This document shows, one piece after another, positions 1,422 to 51,083 of a stretch of DNA of 52,416 bases (position 1 is its first letter; each line of letters starts with the position of its first letter). A program made the translations under genes and the position numbers. The stretch lies in the IMG/VR virus record IMGVR_UViG_2896589216_000005. The stretch is one strand, 5' to 3'. The notes under the pieces are model-generated. The model searched no databases. It was given only the letters and a program-made list of their open reading frames with translations, and had not been told where the DNA came from. The stretch is from a virus. Its lineage: Duplodnaviria; Heunggongvirae; Uroviricota; Caudoviricetes.

Positions 1422-3896
1422 TTAAAAATCAGCCTGATTCGGGATCAGTTTTTGCCAGATAACTGAAACGTATTTTGCCTGGTAACGGGCGTCATCAAGT
1501 GCATTATGGCGCTCACCTTCGAATGGAATAGCCGTTCTGGCATCGAAGTCTATGGCTTTCCCCAGCTCAACGATTGTGCGTACATCGCGATCGTTGTAGT
1601 AACGCCACGGGCAGGGGATCCCCTGCCGTTCGTATGAACGGCGCAAAATCGTGTTGTCGAAGTTGGCTCCATTTCCCCAGACCTGAACAAAAAATTCACC
1701 GGAGTTTTCGTCGATAAATTCCCGCAATTGTAACAGTGCATCATCTAACGGGATTTCATCGGTCATAATGGCAGATTGCGCTTCGCGTGATTGCTTAAGC
1801 CACCATTTAATGGTGTCCCGATCAATGACCCCGCCAGCAGTTTCCAGATCGATAGTCTTACTAAATTCCGGTCCCATATCTCCGGTTTGCGGATCGAAAA
1901 ATATTGCACCTATTGAGATGATCGGGGCATCAGGATTTTTTCCCATGGTTTCAAGGTCGATCATTAGATGGTCACACGTCCTGCTGGTGGATGTGATTTC
2001 TTGATGACCGTTCACCTTAATTGAGTGATCTGCCGTCTCGCCAGTTTCATTATCGCTATCGTGATGCTGATTGCCGTCAGTGTTCTCCTTGTGTGGATGT
2101 TCAGCGCCTTCCATTTCCTCCGGATCATCTTCCTGAACTTCAACCTGATACTCTTCATCGAATGTTTCCTGGTATGTTGCGTCGCCCATCACCGCGCCAC
2201 AATCAGGGCAGTTGCCGCCGCCGGTCTGACCGCAGGCGGTGCAGACTTTTTCCACTTCCTGTTGCGCCACTGGTTCAGGCTGTTTCGTTTCTGGCTCGTT
2301 TTGTAACGCATTTGGGCTGTTTTGTTCCGCTTTCTGGCCGTTCTGTTCCGTTTCTTGCTGGTTCTGATTCACTGAATCGCGGGTTTCAATCCCCTTCACC
2401 CATTTCGGATCATTCGGGTCGCTAATCCCTGCAACAAATTCACCACGTGATACAGCAAGCAAATTATTGGCGTCAGGCTGGCTGATATTGGCTGCCTGCA
2501 TAATTTTGTTTACTTCGTCAGCGGTAACTTTTACCGGCTCTGGTTGTGCGATCGTGTCAGATGCACCAGTATTTTGTTGTGAACCTGAGTACGTGCCGTT
2601 TTTACGTGCGAAGTATTCCTCTTTTGTGATTTCCGTAGCTCCCAGGGCCAGTGCTTTTTCCAGACCAGAAAGTTTGTTTGCGCGACCGTATTTTTCGCCG
2701 TCCTTATCGGTGAAAAGGAAGTAGAACGGTCCCTCACGCTCTACAGATGGTTCGTCTTCCACTTCGCATTCGGTTTTTTCGTTGTCCGGCATTGCCGTTT
2801 CCACTGCATCAGTTTCTGGTACTGGTGACGGGAGAGTACCAGCTGTGCCCTGATTTGTTCCTTCGTCATCTTCAAACACGCCCTTGGTAGTCAGGTATTC
2901 AGTGATGTATTTGTTCAGTGCTACGGGATCTTTGTGAATGTCGATCGGACGCTCACGGACAAGGCCAAAAATAGTCTGACGGTCGTAGCGAACGGCATCG
3001 GGTTGTTTGCGCATTGATGCGGAAATGCGCTTCCAGTCTTCGCGATCTTTGTCGATAACTTCATTTTTTGCCCAGCGATGGATGCTGCCGTCAATGTTTC
3101 CGGTATCAATATCGCCAGGCCAGAGAGCGTAGGCCAGTTCTTCATCCAGCGTTTTCCATGTCTGCTTGTATTCGCGACAAATGGCGGCAGTGACTGGGTT
3201 GATTTTTCCTGCTGAGTTTTCAGTGTTCTGTTGATTGACTCTGGCGCTGGCGAGATCAACAACAGACGTGTATTTTCCAGTCTCTTTGCGCTCTGCGTCC
3301 TGCCGTTTTTTCCAGTTACGTAATTCAGCCTGAATTTCGGGCCATTTGGCACCCGGATTACATTTGTGTTTAACCCATCCGATAGCGAACAGTTTGCGTT
3401 CCGGATACATAGCGTTAATTTCAGGCGTTTTCATCAGTGCTTCAACGATATGCCCGTCAAAGGTAGCAACGTCTTCCTGCAGTAATTCCTGCGCGTCAAT
3501 CGCCATATCAACGGTGATGTTTTCACATGTACCGAACTTAACCAGGACCGCGTTCTGTACTTCAAGGGACAGCTTGTCAAAATTGACGTTCATCGGATCG
3601 GATTCTGGTTCGACCGGAATAAAGGAAGCGGATTCCTCATCCCAGCGGTTTTCCTGCATATATTCAGCATCCCAGGAATCGAGGGCAGGGCGGGGTATAC
3701 CGGGTTTATCCTCGCAGACAAGAAATTTATAAGCGCAGTCCTGAGCAGCCGGATAATGTTCCAGGAATTGCCAGTGAAATTTTGCGCGGGCGCGACGTTC
3801 ATCACCGGCTTCAATGGCAGTGGCTACAGCGACGGCACCTTCTTCCTTTATTGCCTGTTCGTCCGGAATGGCGGCGCAAATAAAGACTTTACTCAT
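1422..3896 (-). CDS. Large exonuclease-family protein: C-terminal DEDDh (DnaQ-like) 3-5 exonuclease domain, central CxxC...CxxC zinc ribbon, acidic linker
   Basis: 824-aa ORF; C-terminal MIDLETMG...HNALDDARY motifs typical of DnaQ-like exonucleases; occupies the recombination-module position next to xis. Confidence 0.7.
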   Translation of the reverse strand: MSKVFICAAIPDEQAIKEEGAVAVATAIEAGDERRARAKFHWQFLEHYPAAQDCAYKFLVCEDKPGIPRPALDSWDAEYMQENRWDEESASFIPVEPESDPMNVNFDKLSLEVQNAVLVKFGTCENITVDMAIDAQELLQEDVATFDGHIVEALMKTPEINAMYPERKLFAIGWVKHKCNPGAKWPEIQAELRNWKKRQDAERKETGKYTSVVDLASARVNQQNTENSAGKINPVTAAICREYKQTWKTLDEELAYALWPGDIDTGNIDGSIHRWAKNEVIDKDREDWKRISASMRKQPDAVRYDRQTIFGLVRERPIDIHKDPVALNKYITEYLTTKGVFEDDEGTNQGTAGTLPSPVPETDAVETAMPDNEKTECEVEDEPSVEREGPFYFLFTDKDGEKYGRANKLSGLEKALALGATEITKEEYFARKNGTYSGSQQNTGASDTIAQPEPVKVTADEVNKIMQAANISQPDANNLLAVSRGEFVAGISDPNDPKWVKGIETRDSVNQNQQETEQNGQKAEQNSPNALQNEPETKQPEPVAQQEVEKVCTACGQTGGGNCPDCGAVMGDATYQETFDEEYQVEVQEDDPEEMEGAEHPHKENTDGNQHHDSDNETGETADHSIKVNGHQEITSTSRTCDHLMIDLETMGKNPDAPIISIGAIFFDPQTGDMGPEFSKTIDLETAGGVIDRDTIKWWLKQSREAQSAIMTDEIPLDDALLQLREFIDENSGEFFVQVWGNGANFDNTILRRSYERQGIPCPWRYYNDRDVRTIVELGKAIDFDARTAIPFEGERHNALDDARYQAKYVSVIWQKLIPNQADF

Positions 3897-4180: not shown

Positions 4181-4344
4181 TGCTGTTCTCCGATAATACC
4201 AAGTTCAAGAAGGGCAATTCTGGAAAGTATGGAATTATCATTGAGAAGATAAGGTTCATATTTTCTCATCTTAATGGCATCTTCCGTAAACTCCCGGTTA
4301 CTGAGCAGAACACCAATATCAAAACAACCGGTAATGACTCCAAC

Positions 4345-4722
4345 TTATTGATAGTGTTTTATGTTCAGATAATGCCCGATGACTTTGTCATGCAGCTCCA
4401 CCGATTTTGAGAACGACAGCGACTTCCGTCCCAGCCGTGCCAGGTGCTGCCTCAGATTCAGGTTATGCCGCTCAATTCGCTGCGTATATCGCTTGCTGAT
4501 TACGTGCAGCTTTCCCTTCAGGCGGGATTCATACAGTGGCCAGCCATCCGTCATCCATATCACCACGTCAAAGGGTGACAGCAAGCTCATAAGACGCCCC
4601 AGCGTCGCCATAGTGCGTTCACCGAATACGTGCGCAACAACCGTCTTCCGGAGCCTGTCATACGCGTAAAACAGCCAGCGCTGGCGCGATTTAGCCCCGA
4701 CGTATCCCCACTGTTCGTCCAT
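4345..4722 (-). CDS. insB: IS1 InsB (transposase frame, normally expressed as InsAB fusion by -1 frameshift)
   Basis: 125-aa ORF matching IS1 InsB. Confidence 0.9.
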
Positions 4723-4766
4723 TTCCGCGCAGACGATGACGTCACTGCCCGGCTGTATACGCGAGG

Positions 4767-5042
4767 TTACCGACTGCGGCCTGAGTTTTTTAAGTGACGT
4801 AAAATCGTGTTGAGGCTAACGCCCATAATGCGTGCAGTTGCCCGGCATCCAACGCCATTCATGGCCATATCAATAATTTTCTGGTGCGTACCGGGTTGAG
4901 AAGCGGTGTAAGTGAACTGCAGTTGCCATGTTTTACGGCAGTGAGAGCAGAGATAGCGCTGATGTCCGGCAGTGCTTTTGCCGTTACGCACCACCCCGTC
5001 AGTAGCTGAACAGGAGGGACAGCTGATAGAAACAGAAGCCAC
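4767..5042 (-). CDS. insA: IS1 InsA
   Basis: 91-aa ORF matching IS1 InsA (zinc-finger N-terminus CPSC...CSHC). Confidence 0.92.
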
Positions 5043-5315
5043 TGGAGCACCTCAAAAACACCATCATACACTAAATCAGTAAGTTGGCAGCATCACCAAA
5101 CAACCTTCAGACGTATTAACGTTTGGTAATAACGTTTCCATTATCGCGTCCTCAACAATGAATTTTGTGATGCGGTGCCTGGTGCCTCCAGGTGACGTTA
5201 ACCAGTTAACAATTAACGCCGGATACAGAGAATCCACCCATAACACTGTTTTTGGTTTTAACTGTTCTGCGTGCGCTCAGCCGCATTCACCACATCACAA
5301 AATTCACTTTAAAAA

Positions 5316-5368
5316 GGGCGGCAGAGCAGTCACGGAGTAAAACTGATACCGCCAAACGTCACCAGAAA
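5316..5368 (-). ncRNA. dicF: DicF small regulatory RNA (53 nt) followed by U-tract
   Basis: Reverse complement of 5316-5368 reads UUUCUGGUGACGUUUGGCGGUAUCAGUUUUACUCCGUGACUGCUCUGCCGCCC followed by UUUUU, matching the DicF sequence as recalled. Confidence 0.88.
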
Positions 5369-5673
5369 ATTGATAACAGAGGGCGTTGCAGCGGGGTTGT
5401 CACTTAAGCGTATGGTCAACCTGACAACCCGGTGTCCTCAGCGGGGGAAGGAATAACCCCGCCATACTTACCGCCGCGCCATTTCGCGGATTGCCACAAC
5501 CGGAAGCGCACGATCGAATTAAATTTAACGACGACCTATACAGAGAGACTAACTTCTCCGGGCGCTTTCGTGTTATGCCCTGACTTTTCAGGGATATATC
5601 CTTTTCAGTAAACTGTCAGTGCCGGATTCTTATCCGTGTCCGGCGCACGCACTCTACCTCACCTGTGAATAAA

Positions 5674-6060
5674 TTAATGATTAATTGATATTTTGTTGTT
5701 TGATTCAACTTTCCCATCGGATGTGTGATGCTTTAAATCACAGGAATTAATACTGCTTGCTGTAAAATGATTTTCAAGGGGTTCTATTCGAATCCCTTTC
5801 TTTTTCATTAACAAGCCAAACCCCTTATCAATGATGTCCATTAGATCCAGGAAGTATTTTTCATGTAAATCCTGGTTATCAGAGAGCTGCTTCTCTTCGT
5901 ACAGCCCGATAAAGGCTCGGCGTACGTTACCGGATATATTGTCGATGGTTTCTTTTTCTACGGTACTCAGGTCAAGAGTCGCCAGTTGAGAGCGAACCAC
6001 ATTCGATGCCATTTCCTGGAATGGTACTGGTAAATCTTTAAATTCCATCGTCAACCTCAT
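5674..6060 (-). CDS. Hypothetical protein in the dicB operon (128 aa)
   Basis: ORF whose start overlaps the upstream gene stop (ATGA at 6060); lies between the ydfA-like gene and dicF. Confidence 0.5.
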   Translation of the reverse strand: MRLTMEFKDLPVPFQEMASNVVRSQLATLDLSTVEKETIDNISGNVRRAFIGLYEEKQLSDNQDLHEKYFLDLMDIIDKGFGLLMKKKGIRIEPLENHFTASSINSCDLKHHTSDGKVESNNKISINH

Positions 6061-6317
6061 CAGTCGGAGTTTCTTGCTAACCAGCGACGCGCGCCAGCTT
6101 CGGTTTTAAACGTTTTGCTTTTGGTATACGTCATGGCGGTGAATGTGCCGTCCTGGTTGGGGAGCACACCACATACCAGAGATTCGCTGTTGCCAAGATC
6201 GATAGTATCCATGCTGACCTCATTACCCCTTAACGCCGGGTAGCGGAACTGTTTGCTGAGAACACCGTGCGGTGTCTTGATGGGTGGTAATTTAGTTTTC
6301 TCATGAATGTTGGTCAA
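6060..6317 (-). CDS. ydfA: YdfA-like small protein (first gene of dicB operon); true start may be the internal ATG at 6212 (50 aa)
   Basis: ORF track start is TTG at 6317 with no SD; internal Met (MDTIDLG...) has a GAGG SD and gives a 50-aa product of YdfA size. Confidence 0.55.
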   Translation of the reverse strand: MTNIHEKTKLPPIKTPHGVLSKQFRYPALRGNEVSMDTIDLGNSESLVCGVLPNQDGTFTAMTYTKSKTFKTEAGARRWLARNSD

Positions 6318-6326
6318 GCATTTTTA

Positions 6327-6340
6327 ATGAGAAAACTCAA
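6327..6340. promoter_or_regulatory. Operator-like palindrome ATGAGAAAACTCAA upstream of the dicB operon
   Basis: Near-perfect inverted repeat TGAG-AAAA-CTCA; second copy at 6860-6873; the pair flanks the repressor gene. Confidence 0.4.
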
Positions 6341-6401
6341 CATTTAATGCAAAATAAAGCCAATACATTGAAATGTAAGGCTTTAAAATTTGTGAAGGGG
6401 G

Positions 6402-6809
6402 TTACTGATGTTTGTTACGTTTGCGAGCTTCTAGTAGCTCGGTGAATAGGCGATTAAAATTCTCAACGCGGGCACGGAGTTCGCTGATTTGTGCTTGCTG
6501 CTCTGATTTTGGAAGTGCGCGATACAATCGCAACATCTCCAACTCATCTTCCGATAAGTCTAAGGCGCTGTTGAGTGCTACTGGTGGATCTGGTGTTTTA
6601 TCCTCGTCACCAAACAGTATCCAAGTTGGTGAACATTGCAATACCTCAGCCAGGCGATGCAAATTTTGCCCGCGCGGGGCTGTATGGTCGCTTTCCCATA
6701 GTGAAATTGATGAGCCAGATACGCCAGCGGCTTTGCTTAAATCGTTTTGACTTAAACCAACCTGTTTGCGTCTTTCTCTAATTCGTTGACCTAAAGTTTT
6801 CTCGTTCAT
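6402..6809 (-). CDS. dicA: DicA-like HTH repressor (XRE family), 135 aa
   Basis: N-terminal HTH (QRIRERRKQVGLSQNDLSKAAGVS) and LQCSPTWILFGDEDK segment match DicA; divergent from a Cro-like gene. Confidence 0.85.
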   Translation of the reverse strand: MNEKTLGQRIRERRKQVGLSQNDLSKAAGVSGSSISLWESDHTAPRGQNLHRLAEVLQCSPTWILFGDEDKTPDPPVALNSALDLSEDELEMLRLYRALPKSEQQAQISELRARVENFNRLFTELLEARKRNKHQ

Positions 6810-6859
6810 ATTTAGATATCTTAATAACCCTTGACTCGAGATTCCTTGAATGATTGCTA

Positions 6860-6873
6860 TTGAGAAAACTCAA
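6860..6873. promoter_or_regulatory. Operator-like palindrome TTGAGAAAACTCAA in the dicA/dicC divergent promoter region
   Basis: Perfect inverted repeat TTGAG-AAAA-CTCAA, 13 nt upstream of the dicC-like start and next to its SD. Confidence 0.45.
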
Positions 6874-6886
6874 CTTTGGAGGGGTG

Positions 6887-7114
6887 ATGTTTAAATCAGA
6901 CGTAATTAATTTTTATGGGACGAAAGCCAAAGTAGCGAAAGCTGCTGGTGTTGATCCATCTGCTGTTTCTCAATGGGGGGAACTGGTTCCTGAAGGTCGC
7001 GCGATGCGCCTGCAAGAGGCATCCGGCGGGGAACTTCAGTACGACCCCAAAGTTTATGACGAATATCGTAAGGCAAAGCGGGCGGGGCGGTTGAACAATG
7101 AAAATCACCCCTGA
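6887..7114 (+). CDS. dicC: DicC-like Cro-type regulator (75 aa)
   Basis: ATG at 6887 preceded by GGAGGGG SD; VPEGRAMRLQEASGGELQYDPKVY matches DicC/YdaS-type Cro proteins. Confidence 0.78.
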   Translation: MFKSDVINFYGTKAKVAKAAGVDPSAVSQWGELVPEGRAMRLQEASGGELQYDPKVYDEYRKAKRAGRLNNENHP

Positions 7115-14850: not shown

Positions 14851-15061
14851 AAACGGTTTGCGGGAAAAGGAGAGTTAAGTAGAATTGCAGCGGGTGCTTG
14901 AGGCTATCTGTCTCAGGCATGAACACCAAAAGGCAGATAGAGAAAAGCCCCAGTTAACATTACGCGTCCGGCAAGACGCTTAACATTAATCTGAGGCCAT
15001 ATCTATGCTCTACACACGTAGGTTAGCCTCTTACGTGCCGAAAGGCAAGGAGAAGCAGGCT

Positions 15062-15217
15062 ATGAAGCAGCAAAAGGCGATGCTAATCGCCCTGATCGTC
15101 ATCTGTTTAACCGTCATTGTGACGGCACTGGTAACGAGGAAAGACCTCTGCGAGGTACGAATCCGAACCGGCCAGACGGAGGTCGCTGTCTTCACAGCTT
15201 ACGAACCTGAGGAGTAA
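15062..15217 (+). CDS. hok: Hok/Gef-family membrane toxin (51 aa)
   Basis: MKQQKAMLIALIVICLTVIVTALVTRKDLCEVRIRTGQTEVAVFTAYEPEE matches the Hok family signature (closest recalled member HokD/RelF). Confidence 0.8.
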   Translation: MKQQKAMLIALIVICLTVIVTALVTRKDLCEVRIRTGQTEVAVFTAYEPEE

Positions 15218-15433: not shown

Positions 15434-15685
15434 ATGATGAACATCGAAGAGCTGCGTAAAATTTTTTGTGAAGATGGCCTCTATGCTGTGTGCGTTGAAA
15501 ATGGAAATATTGTTAGTCATTACCGCATTGTGTGTTTGCAAAAAAATGGGGCTGCGTTAATTAATTTTGTGGATGCCCGAGTGACGGACGGATTTATCTT
15601 GCGCGACGGTGAGTTTGTCACTTCATTACAGGTATTGAAAGAGATCGGAATAAAAGCTGGCTTTTCTGCTTTTTCAGAAGAATAA
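15434..15685 (+). CDS. Hypothetical protein, 83 aa (Rem-like by position and size)
   Basis: ORF between hok and the DUF968 gene, as rem is in Qin. Confidence 0.45.
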   Translation: MMNIEELRKIFCEDGLYAVCVENGNIVSHYRIVCLQKNGAALINFVDARVTDGFILRDGEFVTSLQVLKEIGIKAGFSAFSEE

Positions 15686-19956: not shown

Positions 19957-20032
19957 GGCCCTTTAGCTCAGTGGTGAGAGCGAGCGACTCATAATCGCCA
20001 GGTCGCTGGTTCAAATCCAGCAAGGGCCACCA
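19957..20032 (+). tRNA. ileZ: tRNA-Ile2 (anticodon CAU, lysidine type; ileZ-like)
   Basis: 76-nt cloverleaf by hand folding; anticodon loop CUCAUAA; near-identical to recalled ileX; encodes 3-prime CCA. Confidence 0.85.
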
Positions 20033-20039
20033 TCACATA

Positions 20040-20116
20040 CCGCCATTAGCTCATCGGGATAGAGCGCCAGCCTTCGAAGCTGGTTGCGCGGGGTTCGAGT
20101 TCTCGATGGCGGTCCA
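20040..20116 (+). tRNA. argO: tRNA-Arg (anticodon UCG)
   Basis: 77-nt cloverleaf by hand folding; anticodon loop CUUCGAA; T-loop TTCGAGT; encodes CCA. Confidence 0.78.
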
Positions 20117-20130
20117 TTTATCGGTATTCT

Positions 20131-20200
20131 GCGTTGTTAGCTCAGCCGGACAGAGCAATTGCCTTCTAAGCAGCTGTGGTTGCACTCCTGTTGTTTCTGG
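20131..20200 (+). pseudogene. Degenerate tRNA-Arg (UCU) remnant
   Basis: Intact acceptor 5-prime strand, D-arm and CUUCUAA loop, but no canonical T-arm or matching 3-prime acceptor strand. Confidence 0.4.
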
Positions 20201-20373
20201 TGGTGATGGTGGACTTCAGCAGCCGGATAATGTCGGTGCTGTCTGATGATGTTTTGGTGGCGGGTGTGGTGGTTGTTGCTTTCCCGTTGCTGAAAAAGAA
20301 AGCATCAGGCGATTAGCAGGGTATCAGTTACCCGTTGAAATTTTTAAATACCTCACAATTCCACAGCTTGATG

Positions 20374-20570
20374 ATTGTCTGGCTGCCGGAGAATTTGTTA
20401 AAAATTACATCGCATGGTGAATCCCCCTCAGCGGCGGGGCATCTGGCAAAGTGTATGATCCAGAGAACATGCAAATTCAGTAGACAGGCTGAATTTACCG
20501 GGAGGCACCTGGCACCATGCGACAGACAGAAATTAGGCTATACTTCAGCCCCTCTCCGGAGGGGCTTTTC
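20374..20570 (+). repeat. Structured direct-repeat unit A (about 200 bp) ending in an 8-bp GC hairpin plus T-run
   Basis: Shares conserved blocks with unit B; terminal hairpin AGCCCCTC-TCCG-GAGGGGCT followed by TTTTCT. Confidence 0.5.
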
Positions 20571-20842
20571 TGTGCAGGATGTGTCACAGTTTCCTGAATT
20601 CTGAGTACTGTCCTGTTACTCAGGGTGCTATATTTTCTGACGTGATGAAAGTCTGCCGGAAGGCGGAACGTATCGGAAATGACCCAGTAGAGAAAACGTT
20701 GACTCAGATACCGATGCTGAGTTACCGGGAAACCGGCATCACATGACCGCTATCCTTCCAGGCTCGCTCCGGCGGGCCTTTTTACTGCAGAAAACAGTTT
20801 TCCCGTAAAATGCTACGTTGCTCATAATTCAGGCTGGCGATT

Positions 20843-21035
20843 ATTGTCTGGCCAGCGGGAAGTTTGTTAAAAAATTTCGCATGGTGAATCCCCCTGTGCG
20901 GAGGGGCAATCAGCGAGTAGGTATATGGGATAATCGCGGATTCAGGTGCTGGTACTGAATTCACCGGGAGGCACCCGGCACCATGCAATGGCACATAGCG
21001 CCACTCTCCAGCCCCTCTCCGGAGGGGCTGTTTAT
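20843..21035 (+). repeat. Structured direct-repeat unit B
   Basis: Same block order as unit A, 469 bp downstream; identical terminal hairpin. Confidence 0.5.
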
Positions 21036-21064
21036 ATTGATTTTGTCAGATGTGAGTAAACTCC

Positions 21065-50499: not shown

Positions 50500-51083
50500 T
50501 GGCATTCAGAATGAGTGAACAAGCACGGACCATAAAAATTTATAATCTGCTGGCCGGAACTAATGAATTTATTGGTGAAGGTGACGCATATATTCCGCCT
50601 CATACAGGTCTGCCAGCAAACAGTACCGATATTGCACCACCAGATATTCCTGCTGGCTTTGTGGCTGTTTTCAACAGTGATGAGGCATCGTGGCATCTCG
50701 TTGAAGACCATCGGGGTAAAACGGTTTATGACGTAGCGTCAGGGGACGAGTTATTTATTTCTGAACTCGGTCCGTTACCGGAAAATGTTACCTGGTTATC
50801 GCCGGAAGGGGAGTTTCAGAAGTGGAACGGCACAGCCTGGGTGAAGGATACGGAAGCAGAAAAAATGTTCCGGATCCGGGAGGCGGAAGAAACAAAAAAC
50901 AACCTGATGCAGGTAGCCAGTGAGCATATTGCGCCGCTTCAGGATGCTGCAGATCTGGAAATTGCAACGGAGGAAGAAACCTCATTGCTGGAAGCCTGGA
51001 AAAAGTATCGGGTGTTGCTGAACCGTGTTGATACATCAACTGCACCTGATATTGAGTGGCCTACGAACCCTGTCAGGGAGTAA
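50499..51083 (+). CDS. tfa: Tail fiber assembly protein Tfa
   Basis: 194-aa ORF near-identical in pattern to lambda Tfa; start overlaps the stf stop (TAATG). Confidence 0.92.

What the first reader, a model, noticed from the sequence alone, without database searches (positions are those of the whole stretch)
5674..6340. dicB operon carries a 128-aa unknown gene and shares an operator palindrome with the immunity promoter
Between the YdfA-like gene and dicF, where Qin has the short ydfB/ydfC genes, there is a coupled 128-aa ORF of unknown function. The palindrome TGAG-AAAA-CTCA occurs both upstream of this operon (6327-6340) and in the dicA/dicC intergenic region (6860-6873), suggesting the DicA-like repressor controls both.
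Basis: partly seen in the sequence, partly recalled or inferred. Interest (0 to 1): 0.42.

Follow-up and report, generated by a model that had tools for sequence, protein, structure and literature searches.

The report
Prophage operator trio and orphan gene
This is the on/off control region of a dormant virus in E. coli: three copies of one repressor-binding motif guard two promoters, and the operon they control carries a common small gene of unknown function, sitting in a slot where related viruses swap genes freely. It is ordinary in kind and only mildly interesting.

Summary
Both observations are real. The minus-strand ORF 5674-6060 exists, but its conserved product is 124 aa, starting at ATG 6048. 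It is a full-length member of the uncharacterised family PHROG 6937, evolves under purifying selection (dN/dS about 0.25), and occurs in 672 of 5426 complete E. coli genomes. It is unrelated to YdfB/YdfC. It is a clean 398-bp cassette replacing Qin's ydfB-ydfC.

The motif TGAGAAAACTCAAC occurs exactly twice in 52 kb (6328-6341 and 6861-6874; 0 expected). This layout (one site at the dicC promoter, two bracketing the -35 of dicBp) matches K-12 Qin, whose operators have a different sequence (TGTTAG-N6-CTAACA). Across relatives the motif changes with the repressor's recognition helix but keeps its positions. The functional phage mEp460_ev081 has the same repressor and the same three sites.

So this is a DicA/DicC-type switch of a different immunity specificity: a new member of a known kind. 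Binding is inferred, not shown.

The mildly novel part is the slot between ydfA and dicF. It is hypervariable, and the ORF124 superfamily joins a conserved 53-aa N-terminal helical hairpin to at least 8 unrelated C-terminal modules. Its function is unknown.

The parts
6860..6873 (.). Operator site A (TTGAGAAAACTCAA; perfect 5+5 inverted repeat with a 4-bp centre) in the dicA/dicC intergenic region. It abuts the -10 of dicCp and covers its start region.
   Evidence: Exact in 74 of 77 same-immunity loci. Conserved in Buttiauxella. Same position as Qin Oc (PMC3441716).
6327..6340 (.). Operator site B (ATGAGAAAACTCAA), 9 bp upstream of the -35 of dicBp.
   Evidence: Exact in 62 of 77 same-immunity loci; those printed among the remainder differ by a single base. 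Equivalent to the upstream Qin dicBp site TGTTAGCTATAGCATACA.
6291..6304 (.). Operator site C (ATGAGAAAACTAAA read on the minus strand), inverted relative to site B. It lies in the spacer and the first bases of the -10 of dicBp. Centre-to-centre distance from site B is 36 bp.
   Evidence: one mismatch. Exact in 72 of 77 loci while the adjacent spacer bases vary. Equivalent to Qin TGTTAGTCATGGCTAATC, where the spacing is 35 bp.
6289..6317 (-). dicBp, the early-left promoter of the operon: -35 TTGACC (6317-6312), 17-nt spacer, -10 TAAATT (6294-6289).
   Evidence: Consensus scan. Same hexamers and spacing as Qin dicBp.
6831..6860 (+). Probable dicCp: -35 TTGACT (6831-6836), 18-nt spacer, -10 TGCTAT (6855-6860).
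   Evidence: Read from the sequence. The equivalent hexamer is TAGCAT in mEp460 and TAGTAT in Buttiauxella. Inferred; it fell below the threshold of the scan.
6836..6849 (.). Possible weak auxiliary operator TCGAGATTCCTTGA (TTGAGATTCCTTGA in relatives), 24 bp centre-to-centre from site A and overlapping the -35 of dicCp. Low confidence.
   Evidence: Read from the alignments. The left half-site is conserved; the right half matches 3 of 5 positions.
6402..6809 (-). DicA-like repressor, 135 aa, HTH_3 domain only (no S24 peptidase domain). 56% identical to K-12 DicA. Recognition helix SGSSISLWES against SHVSVSQWER in K-12.
   Evidence: NF007257, 238 bits against a cutoff of 101. 130 of 135 residues identical to the mEp460_ev081 repressor.
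6887..7114 (+). DicC/Cro-like regulator, 75 aa. 71% identical to K-12 DicC, with a divergent HTH segment.
   Evidence: NF007282, 167.6 bits against a cutoff of 130.
6350..6385 (-). Terminator-like hairpin plus U-tract after dicA, separating dicA transcription from dicBp.
   Evidence: -12.3 kcal/mol, z = -3.5. The sequence is near-invariant in the loci.
6060..6212 (-). ydfA-like DUF1391 gene, 50 aa, first gene of the operon.
   Evidence: 90% DNA identity to the Qin ydfA region.
5674..6048 (-). Member of PHROG 6937. It has a conserved N-terminal two-helix domain (residues 1-55), a family-specific helix (61-83) and a disordered tail that ends in a conserved ISINH.
5668..6065 (.). The 398-bp cassette that replaces the 430-bp ydfB-ydfC segment of Qin. 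Homology to Qin resumes on both sides.
   Evidence: blastn break points.
5316..5673 (-). Untranslated DicF precursor region (5368-5673) and the DicF sRNA (5316-5367). 93% identical to Qin.
4330..5141 (-). The 5' fragment of dicB (5141-5098, about 14 codons), interrupted by a 768-bp IS1 (4330-5097) with an 8-bp target duplication AAACAACC.
15434..15682 (+). Homologue of the Qin antirepressor Rem (93% identical over 83 aa). It is the likely inducer of the non-cleavable DicA-like repressor.
   Evidence: Rem function in Qin: PMC10448788.

Best explanation
The region is the immunity switch and the first genes of the early-left (dicBF) operon of a lambdoid E. coli prophage. Its immunity type is that of the functional phage mEp460_ev081.

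How the switch most likely works:
- A 135-aa, non-cleavable DicA-like HTH repressor, and probably the divergent DicC/Cro-like protein, recognise a 14-bp operator, (A/T)TGAG-AAAA-CT(C/A)AA.
- One strong copy (site A) covers the -10/+1 of the dicC promoter.
- Two copies bracket the -35 of dicBp. The downstream one (site C) lies in the spacer/-10, so a bound repressor occludes RNA polymerase and keeps ydfA-ORF124-DicF-(dicB) silent in the lysogen.
- Derepression would come from the Rem-type antirepressor encoded 8.6 kb away, or from stochastic switching, as shown for Qin.

What is shown here: the motif, its positions, its conservation, and its co-variation with the repressor type. What is inferred: binding and repression.

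ORF124 is a real 124-aa protein-coding gene translated right after ydfA. It sits in a hypervariable accessory slot between ydfA and the DicF precursor. It belongs to a superfamily restricted to Enterobacterales prophages, in which a conserved ~53-aa N-terminal helical hairpin is joined to interchangeable, mutually unrelated C-terminal modules.

My best guess for its mechanism (inference, about 35%): it is a non-enzymatic early protein made only on induction or infection. The N-domain would provide a common docking or oligomerisation function, and the C-terminal part would bind a host or competitor-phage target (host takeover, exclusion or counter-defence).
For: Operators:
- The 14-mer is exact twice against 0 expected, and there is a third inverted copy in the promoter core.
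- The architecture matches Qin. Qin Oc binds DicA in vivo, and a single base change abolishes binding (PMC3441716). DicA represses dicBp (PMC10448788).
- In 77 loci with the same repressor the sites are near-invariant while the spacers between them vary.
- Buttiauxella repressors (75-76% identical, same helix type) keep the motif at all three positions despite diverged flanks. Citrobacter (67%) and K-12-type (53-56%) repressors have different inverted repeats at the same positions.
- The recognition helices of both DicA and DicC differ from K-12.
- mEp460_ev081 has the same repressor and the same sites.
- A Rem homologue is present.

ORF124:
- PHROG 6937, E 4e-77, full length.
- dN/dS 0.25-0.27.
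- Present in 672 of 5426 complete E. coli genomes.
- 23 homologues align with a single one-residue insertion up to residue 115.
- The slot has at least 20 length classes among 80 loci with an identical repressor.
- There are at least 8 unrelated C-terminal classes.
- The gene family is found behind at least 5 different repressor types.
- The N-domain is modelled as a helical hairpin at pLDDT 77-88.
Against: - No binding or expression data exist for this operator type, and no paper in the searched library contains the motif in a phage context.
- Site C departs from symmetry (CTAAA instead of CTCAA), and site B has a mismatched outer base. Affinities may therefore differ, and cooperativity is unknown.
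- For ORF124 there is no functional evidence at all: no hit in Pfam, NCBIfam, PADLOC or PDB, no structural neighbour, and a mediocre model (mean pLDDT 63.5).
- The 'adaptor plus variable effector' reading rests only on domain architecture and location.
- The operon is damaged downstream (IS1 in dicB), so this copy may be decaying.
Confidence: 0.72

Rival explanations
1. The repeated 14-mer is not the DicA-like repressor's operator. It could be bound only by the DicC/Cro-like protein or by a host factor, or it could be a repeated promoter-associated element with no regulatory role.
For: No binding data exist. DicC also changes its HTH segment together with the motif. In Yun et al., two further Qin sites predicted from sequence alone (Om, Oa) did not bind DicA, which shows that sequence-predicted operators can be wrong.
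Against: The motif has dyad symmetry typical of dimeric HTH repressors. The positions are equivalent to Qin Oc, which does bind DicA. The motif co-varies with the repressor's helix type across genera. Site C covers the core promoter, and the sites are conserved islands between variable spacers.
Confidence: 0.1
2. ORF124 is non-functional mosaic debris: a recombination leftover kept open by chance and carried along with the conserved flanks.
For: The slot is highly mosaic, with many truncated or frame-shifted variants in the databases. The C-terminal 30 residues are predicted disordered and are poorly conserved. No function is known for any member.
Against: dN/dS is 0.25 overall and 0.12 for residues 56-93. 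44 residues are invariant across 23 homologues of 69-97% identity, and the C-terminal ISINH is conserved. There is a good Shine-Dalgarno. The gene is present in 12% of complete E. coli genomes and behind five repressor types.
Confidence: 0.1
3. The ORF is a fusion or misannotation of ydfB and ydfC homologues.
For: It occupies the same position and has a similar total length to the ydfB-ydfC segment (398 against 430 bp).
Against: blastp of ORF124 against YdfA/B/C gives nothing better than E 0.53. tblastn against 6 kb of Qin gives E 3.2. ydfB, ydfC and ORF124-type genes coexist as separate genes in other loci, for example L067 and L016.
Confidence: 0.01
4. ORF124 is a lysis-lysogeny or division-control accessory, by positional analogy with lambda cIII/kil. 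It would modulate the DicA/DicC switch or the DicB/DicF division block rather than act on defence or competitor phages.
For: It lies in the early-left operon immediately before the division inhibitors DicF and DicB. An N-domain homologue in Stx2a phage PA2 lies in the same operon as kil, gam, recT and exo.
Against: The gene family is dispensable for the operon: Qin and several same-immunity loci lack it. Its C-terminus is swapped among unrelated modules, which fits a conserved housekeeping regulator poorly. Similarity to cIII or Kil was not tested.
Confidence: 0.12

Closest known systems
dicA-dicC-dicBp immunity region of the Qin cryptic prophage of E. coli K-12 (Bejar et al.; Yun et al. 2012, PMC3441716; Ragunathan et al. 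2023, PMC10448788)
   Same: A 135-aa HTH-only repressor and a divergent Cro-like gene. One inverted-repeat operator at dicCp and two bracketing the -35 of dicBp, with nearly the same spacing (36 against 35 bp). The same promoter hexamers. ydfA as first gene, DicF and dicB downstream, and a Rem antirepressor on the same element.
   Different: The operator sequence is TTGAG-N4-CTCAA instead of TGTTAG-N6-CTAACA. The repressor is only 56% identical, with a different recognition helix, so the element is presumably heteroimmune. ydfB and ydfC are absent and replaced by ORF124. dicB is broken by IS1.
Escherichia phage mEp460_ev081 (LR597641), a functional temperate phage with dicA/dicC/dicF/dicB/rem
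   Same: The repressor is 130/135 identical. The same three operator sites and the same operon order.
   Different: Its slot gene is a different member of the superfamily: 121 aa, PHROG 33007 type, with the same N-domain but an unrelated C-terminus. Its dicB is intact.
Lambda/P22 OL-OR operator logic (CI/C2 and Cro binding shared operators at PL and PR/PRM)
   Same: The same repressor motif is repeated at the early-left and early-right promoters and overlaps the core promoter elements. The repressor and cro genes are divergent.
   Different: Only one strong site is evident at the right-hand promoter, and two at the left (lambda has three at each). The repressor lacks the RecA-cleavable C-terminal domain, so induction is by antirepressor, as in Gifsy phages and Qin.
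PHROGs 6937 / 1363 / 2151 / 9419 / 33007 (uncharacterised early-left proteins of enterobacterial lambdoid phages)
   Same: ORF124 matches PHROG 6937 end to end (E 4e-77) and shares its first ~55 residues with the other four families.
   Different: The C-terminal halves are unrelated between these families. None has an assigned function. No deposited phage genome in the searched collection carries a full-length ORF124.

Membership tests
DicA/DicC-type (Qin-like) prophage immunity switch | Short HTH-only repressor of the DicA family | tested here: met
   NCBIfam NF007257 DicA, 238.3 bits against a cutoff of 101, covering 1-135 of 135. Pfam reports HTH_3 only and no Peptidase_S24. 56% identical to K-12 DicA.
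DicA/DicC-type (Qin-like) prophage immunity switch | Divergently transcribed DicC/P22-Cro-like gene | tested here: met
   NF007282 DicC, 167.6 bits against a cutoff of 130. Pfam P22_Cro, E 1e-17. 71% identical to K-12 DicC.
DicA/DicC-type (Qin-like) prophage immunity switch | The same inverted-repeat operator at dicCp and, in two copies, at dicBp, overlapping the core promoter | tested here: met
   Sites A, B and C. Positional equivalence with Qin. Co-variation with repressor type.
DicA/DicC-type (Qin-like) prophage immunity switch | The repressor binds the operators and represses dicBp and dicCp | not testable with these tools
   Needs EMSA, footprinting or reporter assays. Shown only for Qin Oc and dicBp (PMC3441716, PMC10448788).
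DicA/DicC-type (Qin-like) prophage immunity switch | Induction through a Rem-type antirepressor rather than RecA cleavage | tested here: inconclusive
   A Rem homologue (93% identical) is present at 15434-15682 and the repressor has no S24 domain. Its action on this repressor is untested.
dicBF operon | DicF sRNA downstream of the small ORFs | tested here: met
   Rfam RF00039, 76.7 bits against a gathering score of 48, full length, 5316-5367 minus strand.
dicBF operon | Intact dicB | tested here: not met
   IS1 (4330-5097) splits dicB after about 14 codons.
dicBF operon | ydfA (DUF1391) as the promoter-proximal gene | tested here: met
   Pfam DUF1391, E 9e-28. 90% DNA identity to the Qin ydfA region.
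YdfB / YdfC | Sequence similarity of ORF124 to YdfB or YdfC | tested here: not met
   blastp E 123 (YdfB) and 4.4 (YdfC). tblastn against Qin E 3.2.
PHROG 6937 | Full-length profile match | tested here: met
   E 4.4e-77, residues 5-128 of the 128-aa ORF against profile positions 1-124 of 124.
Known anti-phage defence proteins (PADLOC-DB) | Match of ORF124 to any defence-system model | tested here: not met
   0 families at E <= 0.1.

The most novel reading that the evidence does not exclude
The ydfA-dicF slot of dicBF-type prophages is a dedicated diversity hot spot. The ORF124 superfamily would be a polymorphic early-protein system: a conserved 53-aa N-terminal hairpin (a shared docking or oligomerisation module, and also a shared recombination handle) carrying interchangeable C-terminal effectors. 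These would be under diversifying pressure from inter-phage or phage-host conflict (counter-defence or superinfection exclusion), all silenced by whichever repressor sits upstream. Nothing here excludes this reading. It rests on architecture (at least 8 unrelated C-termini, at least 20 slot variants behind one identical repressor, and the same gene family behind at least 5 repressor types), not on function.
Probability: 0.3. Interest if true: 0.6.

Novelty: new member of a known kind. Interest (0 to 1): 0.3.

Why it matters
The regulatory part gives the operator sequence and layout for a second specificity of the DicA/DicC switch, the one used by the functional phage mEp460_ev081 and by prophages in several percent of E. 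coli genomes. That makes heteroimmunity and cross-repression between co-resident dicBF prophages directly testable. Those prophages carry toxic division inhibitors and DicB-mediated phage exclusion.

The gene part matters less by itself. It flags a compact, repressor-controlled slot where small early genes with a shared N-terminal domain are shuffled, which is a reasonable place to look for new host-takeover or counter-defence functions. Nothing here overturns current understanding.

Tried and rejected
- Pfam, NCBIfam, PADLOC and PDB sequence searches with ORF124 gave no significant hit. Profile searches against PDB with alignments A1 and A6 gave only vaccinia A49 at E 0.035-0.08, which I treat as chance.
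- The AlphaFold2 model from a 44-sequence alignment is only moderately confident (mean pLDDT 63.5). Foldseek against BFVD and PDB found nothing at E <= 0.001. The only meaningful neighbour is a 52-aa N-domain-only homologue in phage phi191.
- An exhaustive HMMER search of 1.84 billion representatives found only 37 clusters, all matching the N-domain or the protein's own family.
- A profile search with the N-domain returned mostly short or partial E. coli entries, plus one Serratia protein named 'formyltetrahydrofolate deformylase' by its source (66 aa, which I take to be a misannotation). It added no function and little taxonomic range.
- Pfam and PHROG scans of eight other C-terminal variants of the superfamily all came back as unknown function.
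- The ydfB/ydfC fusion idea is rejected.
- The 85-aa form of ydfA is rejected, because its TTG start is the -35 hexamer.
- The genome-contig scan for DicA relatives returned only 8 loci, so the co-variation test rests on four repressor types rather than dozens.
- The literature search for the operator 12-mer returned only unrelated primer sequences.

Full report
**What is in the sequence**

The window is an E. coli lambdoid prophage whose early-left operon runs on the minus strand. Reading right to left:
- a DicC/Cro-like gene (6887-7114, plus strand);
- a divergent 135-aa DicA-like repressor (6402-6809, minus strand);
- a terminator-like hairpin (6350-6385);
- a sigma-70 promoter (-35 TTGACC 6317-6312, 17-nt spacer, -10 TAAATT 6294-6289);
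- a 50-aa DUF1391/ydfA gene (6060-6212);
- the ORF under review (5674-6048/6060);
- about 300 nt of untranslated DicF precursor, then DicF itself (5316-5367; Rfam 76.7 bits);
- the first ~14 codons of dicB (from 5141), cut by an IS1 (4330-5097; 8-bp target duplication).

The repressor and the Cro-like protein pass the curated NCBIfam cutoffs for DicA and DicC. They are only 56% and 71% identical to the K-12 proteins, and the differences are concentrated in the helix-turn-helix.

**The ORF**

The 128-aa ORF listed mechanically starts at an ATG that overlaps the ydfA stop. The conserved protein starts four codons later:
- PHROG 6937 (124 positions) aligns end to end with residues 5-128 (E 4e-77).
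- PGAP annotates the 124-aa form in a 99.3%-identical locus.
- GAGG lies 6 nt before ATG 6048.
- In loci where the gene follows ydfB or ydfC instead of ydfA, it begins directly with MEFKDLP.

It is a real gene. Against homologues of about 80% identity, dN/dS is 0.25-0.27, falling to 0.12 for residues 56-93, and differences concentrate at third codon positions. Twenty-three homologues of 69-97% identity share 44 invariant residues and a conserved C-terminal ISINH. Its DNA is present, at 80% coverage or more, in 672 of 5426 complete E. coli genomes, always annotated as 'hypothetical protein'.

It is not a ydfB/ydfC derivative. blastp finds nothing better than E 0.53 against YdfA, YdfB or YdfC. 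DNA homology to Qin holds at 90% through ydfA and at 93% from just after the ORF's stop through dicF and dicB, but is absent across a 398-bp cassette (5668-6065) that replaces Qin's 430-bp ydfB-ydfC segment. Elsewhere the three gene types coexist as separate genes.

**What ORF124 might be**

No Pfam, NCBIfam, PADLOC or PDB match exists. An exhaustive HMMER pass over 1.84 billion cluster representatives finds only 37 clusters.

The AlphaFold2 model shows:
- a confident two-helix hairpin for residues 1-55 (pLDDT 77-88);
- a weaker third helix (residues 61-83);
- a disordered tail.

Structure searches return nothing significant.

The informative observation is comparative. I fetched 80 viral contigs whose repressor is 99-100% identical to the window's. 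In these, the segment between ydfA and the DicF precursor takes at least 20 lengths (0 to about 1300 bp) and 35 distinct sequences. It is built from an optional ydfB, an optional ydfC and an optional 'MEFKDLP' gene. The 'MEFKDLP' genes share their first ~53 residues. They then continue into at least 8 mutually unrelated C-terminal modules, or stop after 52-65 residues. These correspond to PHROGs 6937, 1363, 2151, 9419 and 33007, all of unknown function.

ORF124-type genes in turn occur behind at least five different repressor types, including S24-peptidase cI-like ones. No deposited phage genome carries a full-length ORF124. N-domain homologues do occur in Stx2a phages, in the early-left operon after kil-gam-recT-exo-ssb.

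I therefore read ORF124 as an accessory early gene in a recombination hot spot. Tentatively, it is a small binding protein with a shared N-terminal module and a lineage-specific C-terminal part. This last step is inference only.

**The repeated motif**

TGAGAAAACTCAAC is exact at 6328-6341 and 6861-6874. Shuffles of the window never contain it twice. The symmetric core is TTGAG-N4-CTCAA. A scan allowing one arm mismatch finds only these two sites in 52 kb.

A third copy, ATGAGAAAACTAAA, lies inverted at 6304-6291, inside the spacer and the first bases of the -10 of the operon promoter. Site B lies 9 bp upstream of the -35, and sites B and C are 36 bp apart centre to centre. Site A abuts the probable -10 of the dicC promoter (TGCTAT here, TAGCAT in mEp460, TAGTAT in Buttiauxella).

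**Why these are operators**

- Qin has exactly this layout, with TGTTAG-N6-CTAACA repeats: Oc at dicCp and two sites bracketing the -35 of dicBp, 35 bp apart.
- Qin Oc binds DicA in vivo, and a single base change abolishes binding (PMC3441716). DicA represses dicBp (PMC10448788).
- Among 77 same-repressor loci, sites A, B and C are exact in 74, 62 and 72 respectively, and the departures at site B that were printed are single-base changes. The bases between the sites and the promoter hexamers vary freely.
- The motif follows the repressor. Buttiauxella repressors of 75-76% identity with the same recognition-helix type (S[GD]SSISLWES) keep ATTGAGTTTTCTCAAT at all three positions in otherwise diverged DNA. 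A Citrobacter repressor (67%, SHATISLWES) has TTGTTGAGTTTATTTAACAA-like repeats. K-12-type repressors (53-56%, SHVSVSQWER) have TGTTAG-N6-CTAACA.
- The functional temperate phage mEp460_ev081 has a 130/135-identical repressor and the same three sites.

Binding itself remains untested. I found no paper describing this operator.

**Mechanism**

By analogy with Qin and lambda, repressor dimers at sites B and C exclude RNA polymerase from dicBp, and a dimer at site A blocks dicCp. By analogy with Oc, the dimer at site A may also activate the weak dicA promoter.

The repressor has no cleavable domain, and a Rem homologue 93% identical to the Qin antirepressor lies at 15434-15682. Induction is therefore probably antirepressor-driven or stochastic, as reported for Qin.

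In this copy, derepression would yield YdfA, ORF124 and DicF but no DicB, because of the IS1.

**Verdict**

The regulatory arrangement is a heteroimmune member of the already characterised DicA/DicC switch, so it is a new member of a known kind. ORF124 is a common, database-known but uncharacterised gene. The modular, hypervariable slot it sits in is the only mildly novel aspect.

Noticed in passing
window 4330-5141: A 768-bp IS1 (insA/insB on the minus strand) is inserted in dicB after about 14 codons, with an 8-bp target duplication AAACAACC. The toxic division inhibitor is inactivated while DicF and the upstream genes stay intact. An otherwise 99.3%-identical locus in E. coli EC931 has no IS1 here.
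   Followed up: yes
window 15434-15682 (+), with sok RNA at 14892-15067: A homologue of the Qin antirepressor Rem (93% identical over 83 aa) lies next to a hok/sok module. This matches the arrangement in Qin, where rem lies next to hokD.
   Followed up: partly
window 6810-6825: The block ATTTAGATATCTTAAT, immediately upstream of the dicA start codon, is invariant from E. coli to Buttiauxella and to a Citrobacter locus with a different operator type. It contains the palindrome AGATATCT. It could be the -10/start of a nearly leaderless, PRM-like dicA transcript, or another binding site.
   Followed up: no
window 6836-6849: TCGAGATTCCTTGA (TTGAGATTCCTTGA in relatives) resembles a degenerate operator. 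It lies 24 bp centre-to-centre from site A, the OR1-OR2 spacing of lambda, and overlaps the -35 of dicCp.
   Followed up: partly
L086:3095-3160 (Buttiauxella ferragutiae): In Buttiauxella the first gene after the dicBp-like promoter starts MMEFKNLPPEAQEQA. It is an N-domain homologue of ORF124 with no ydfA in front, so the superfamily reaches beyond Escherichia and can be promoter-proximal.
   Followed up: no
L084, L085, L089 (genome contigs): Contigs binned as MAGs of 'Bacillota bacterium', 'Veillonella parvula' and 'Collinsella sp.' carry this E. coli-type prophage immunity region at 96-100% protein identity. This is almost certainly binning contamination.
   Followed up: no
window 1422-3896 (-): An intact 824-aa YdfE-like protein with a 3'-5' exonuclease domain lies downstream of the DUF1482/ydfD-like gene. 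The same gene carries an internal stop in strain EC931 and is a pseudogene in K-12 Qin.
   Followed up: no
window 19957-21039 and 50842-51040: Two tRNA genes (19957-20029, 20040-20113) are followed by two tandem STnc100 sRNA copies (20382-20575, 20851-21039). An IS009 RNA match lies at 50842-51040.
   Followed up: no
window 6060-6317 (-): The mechanically listed 85-aa ORF for the ydfA-like gene is an artefact. Its TTG start is the -35 hexamer of dicBp, and the real gene is 50 aa (6060-6212).
   Followed up: yes
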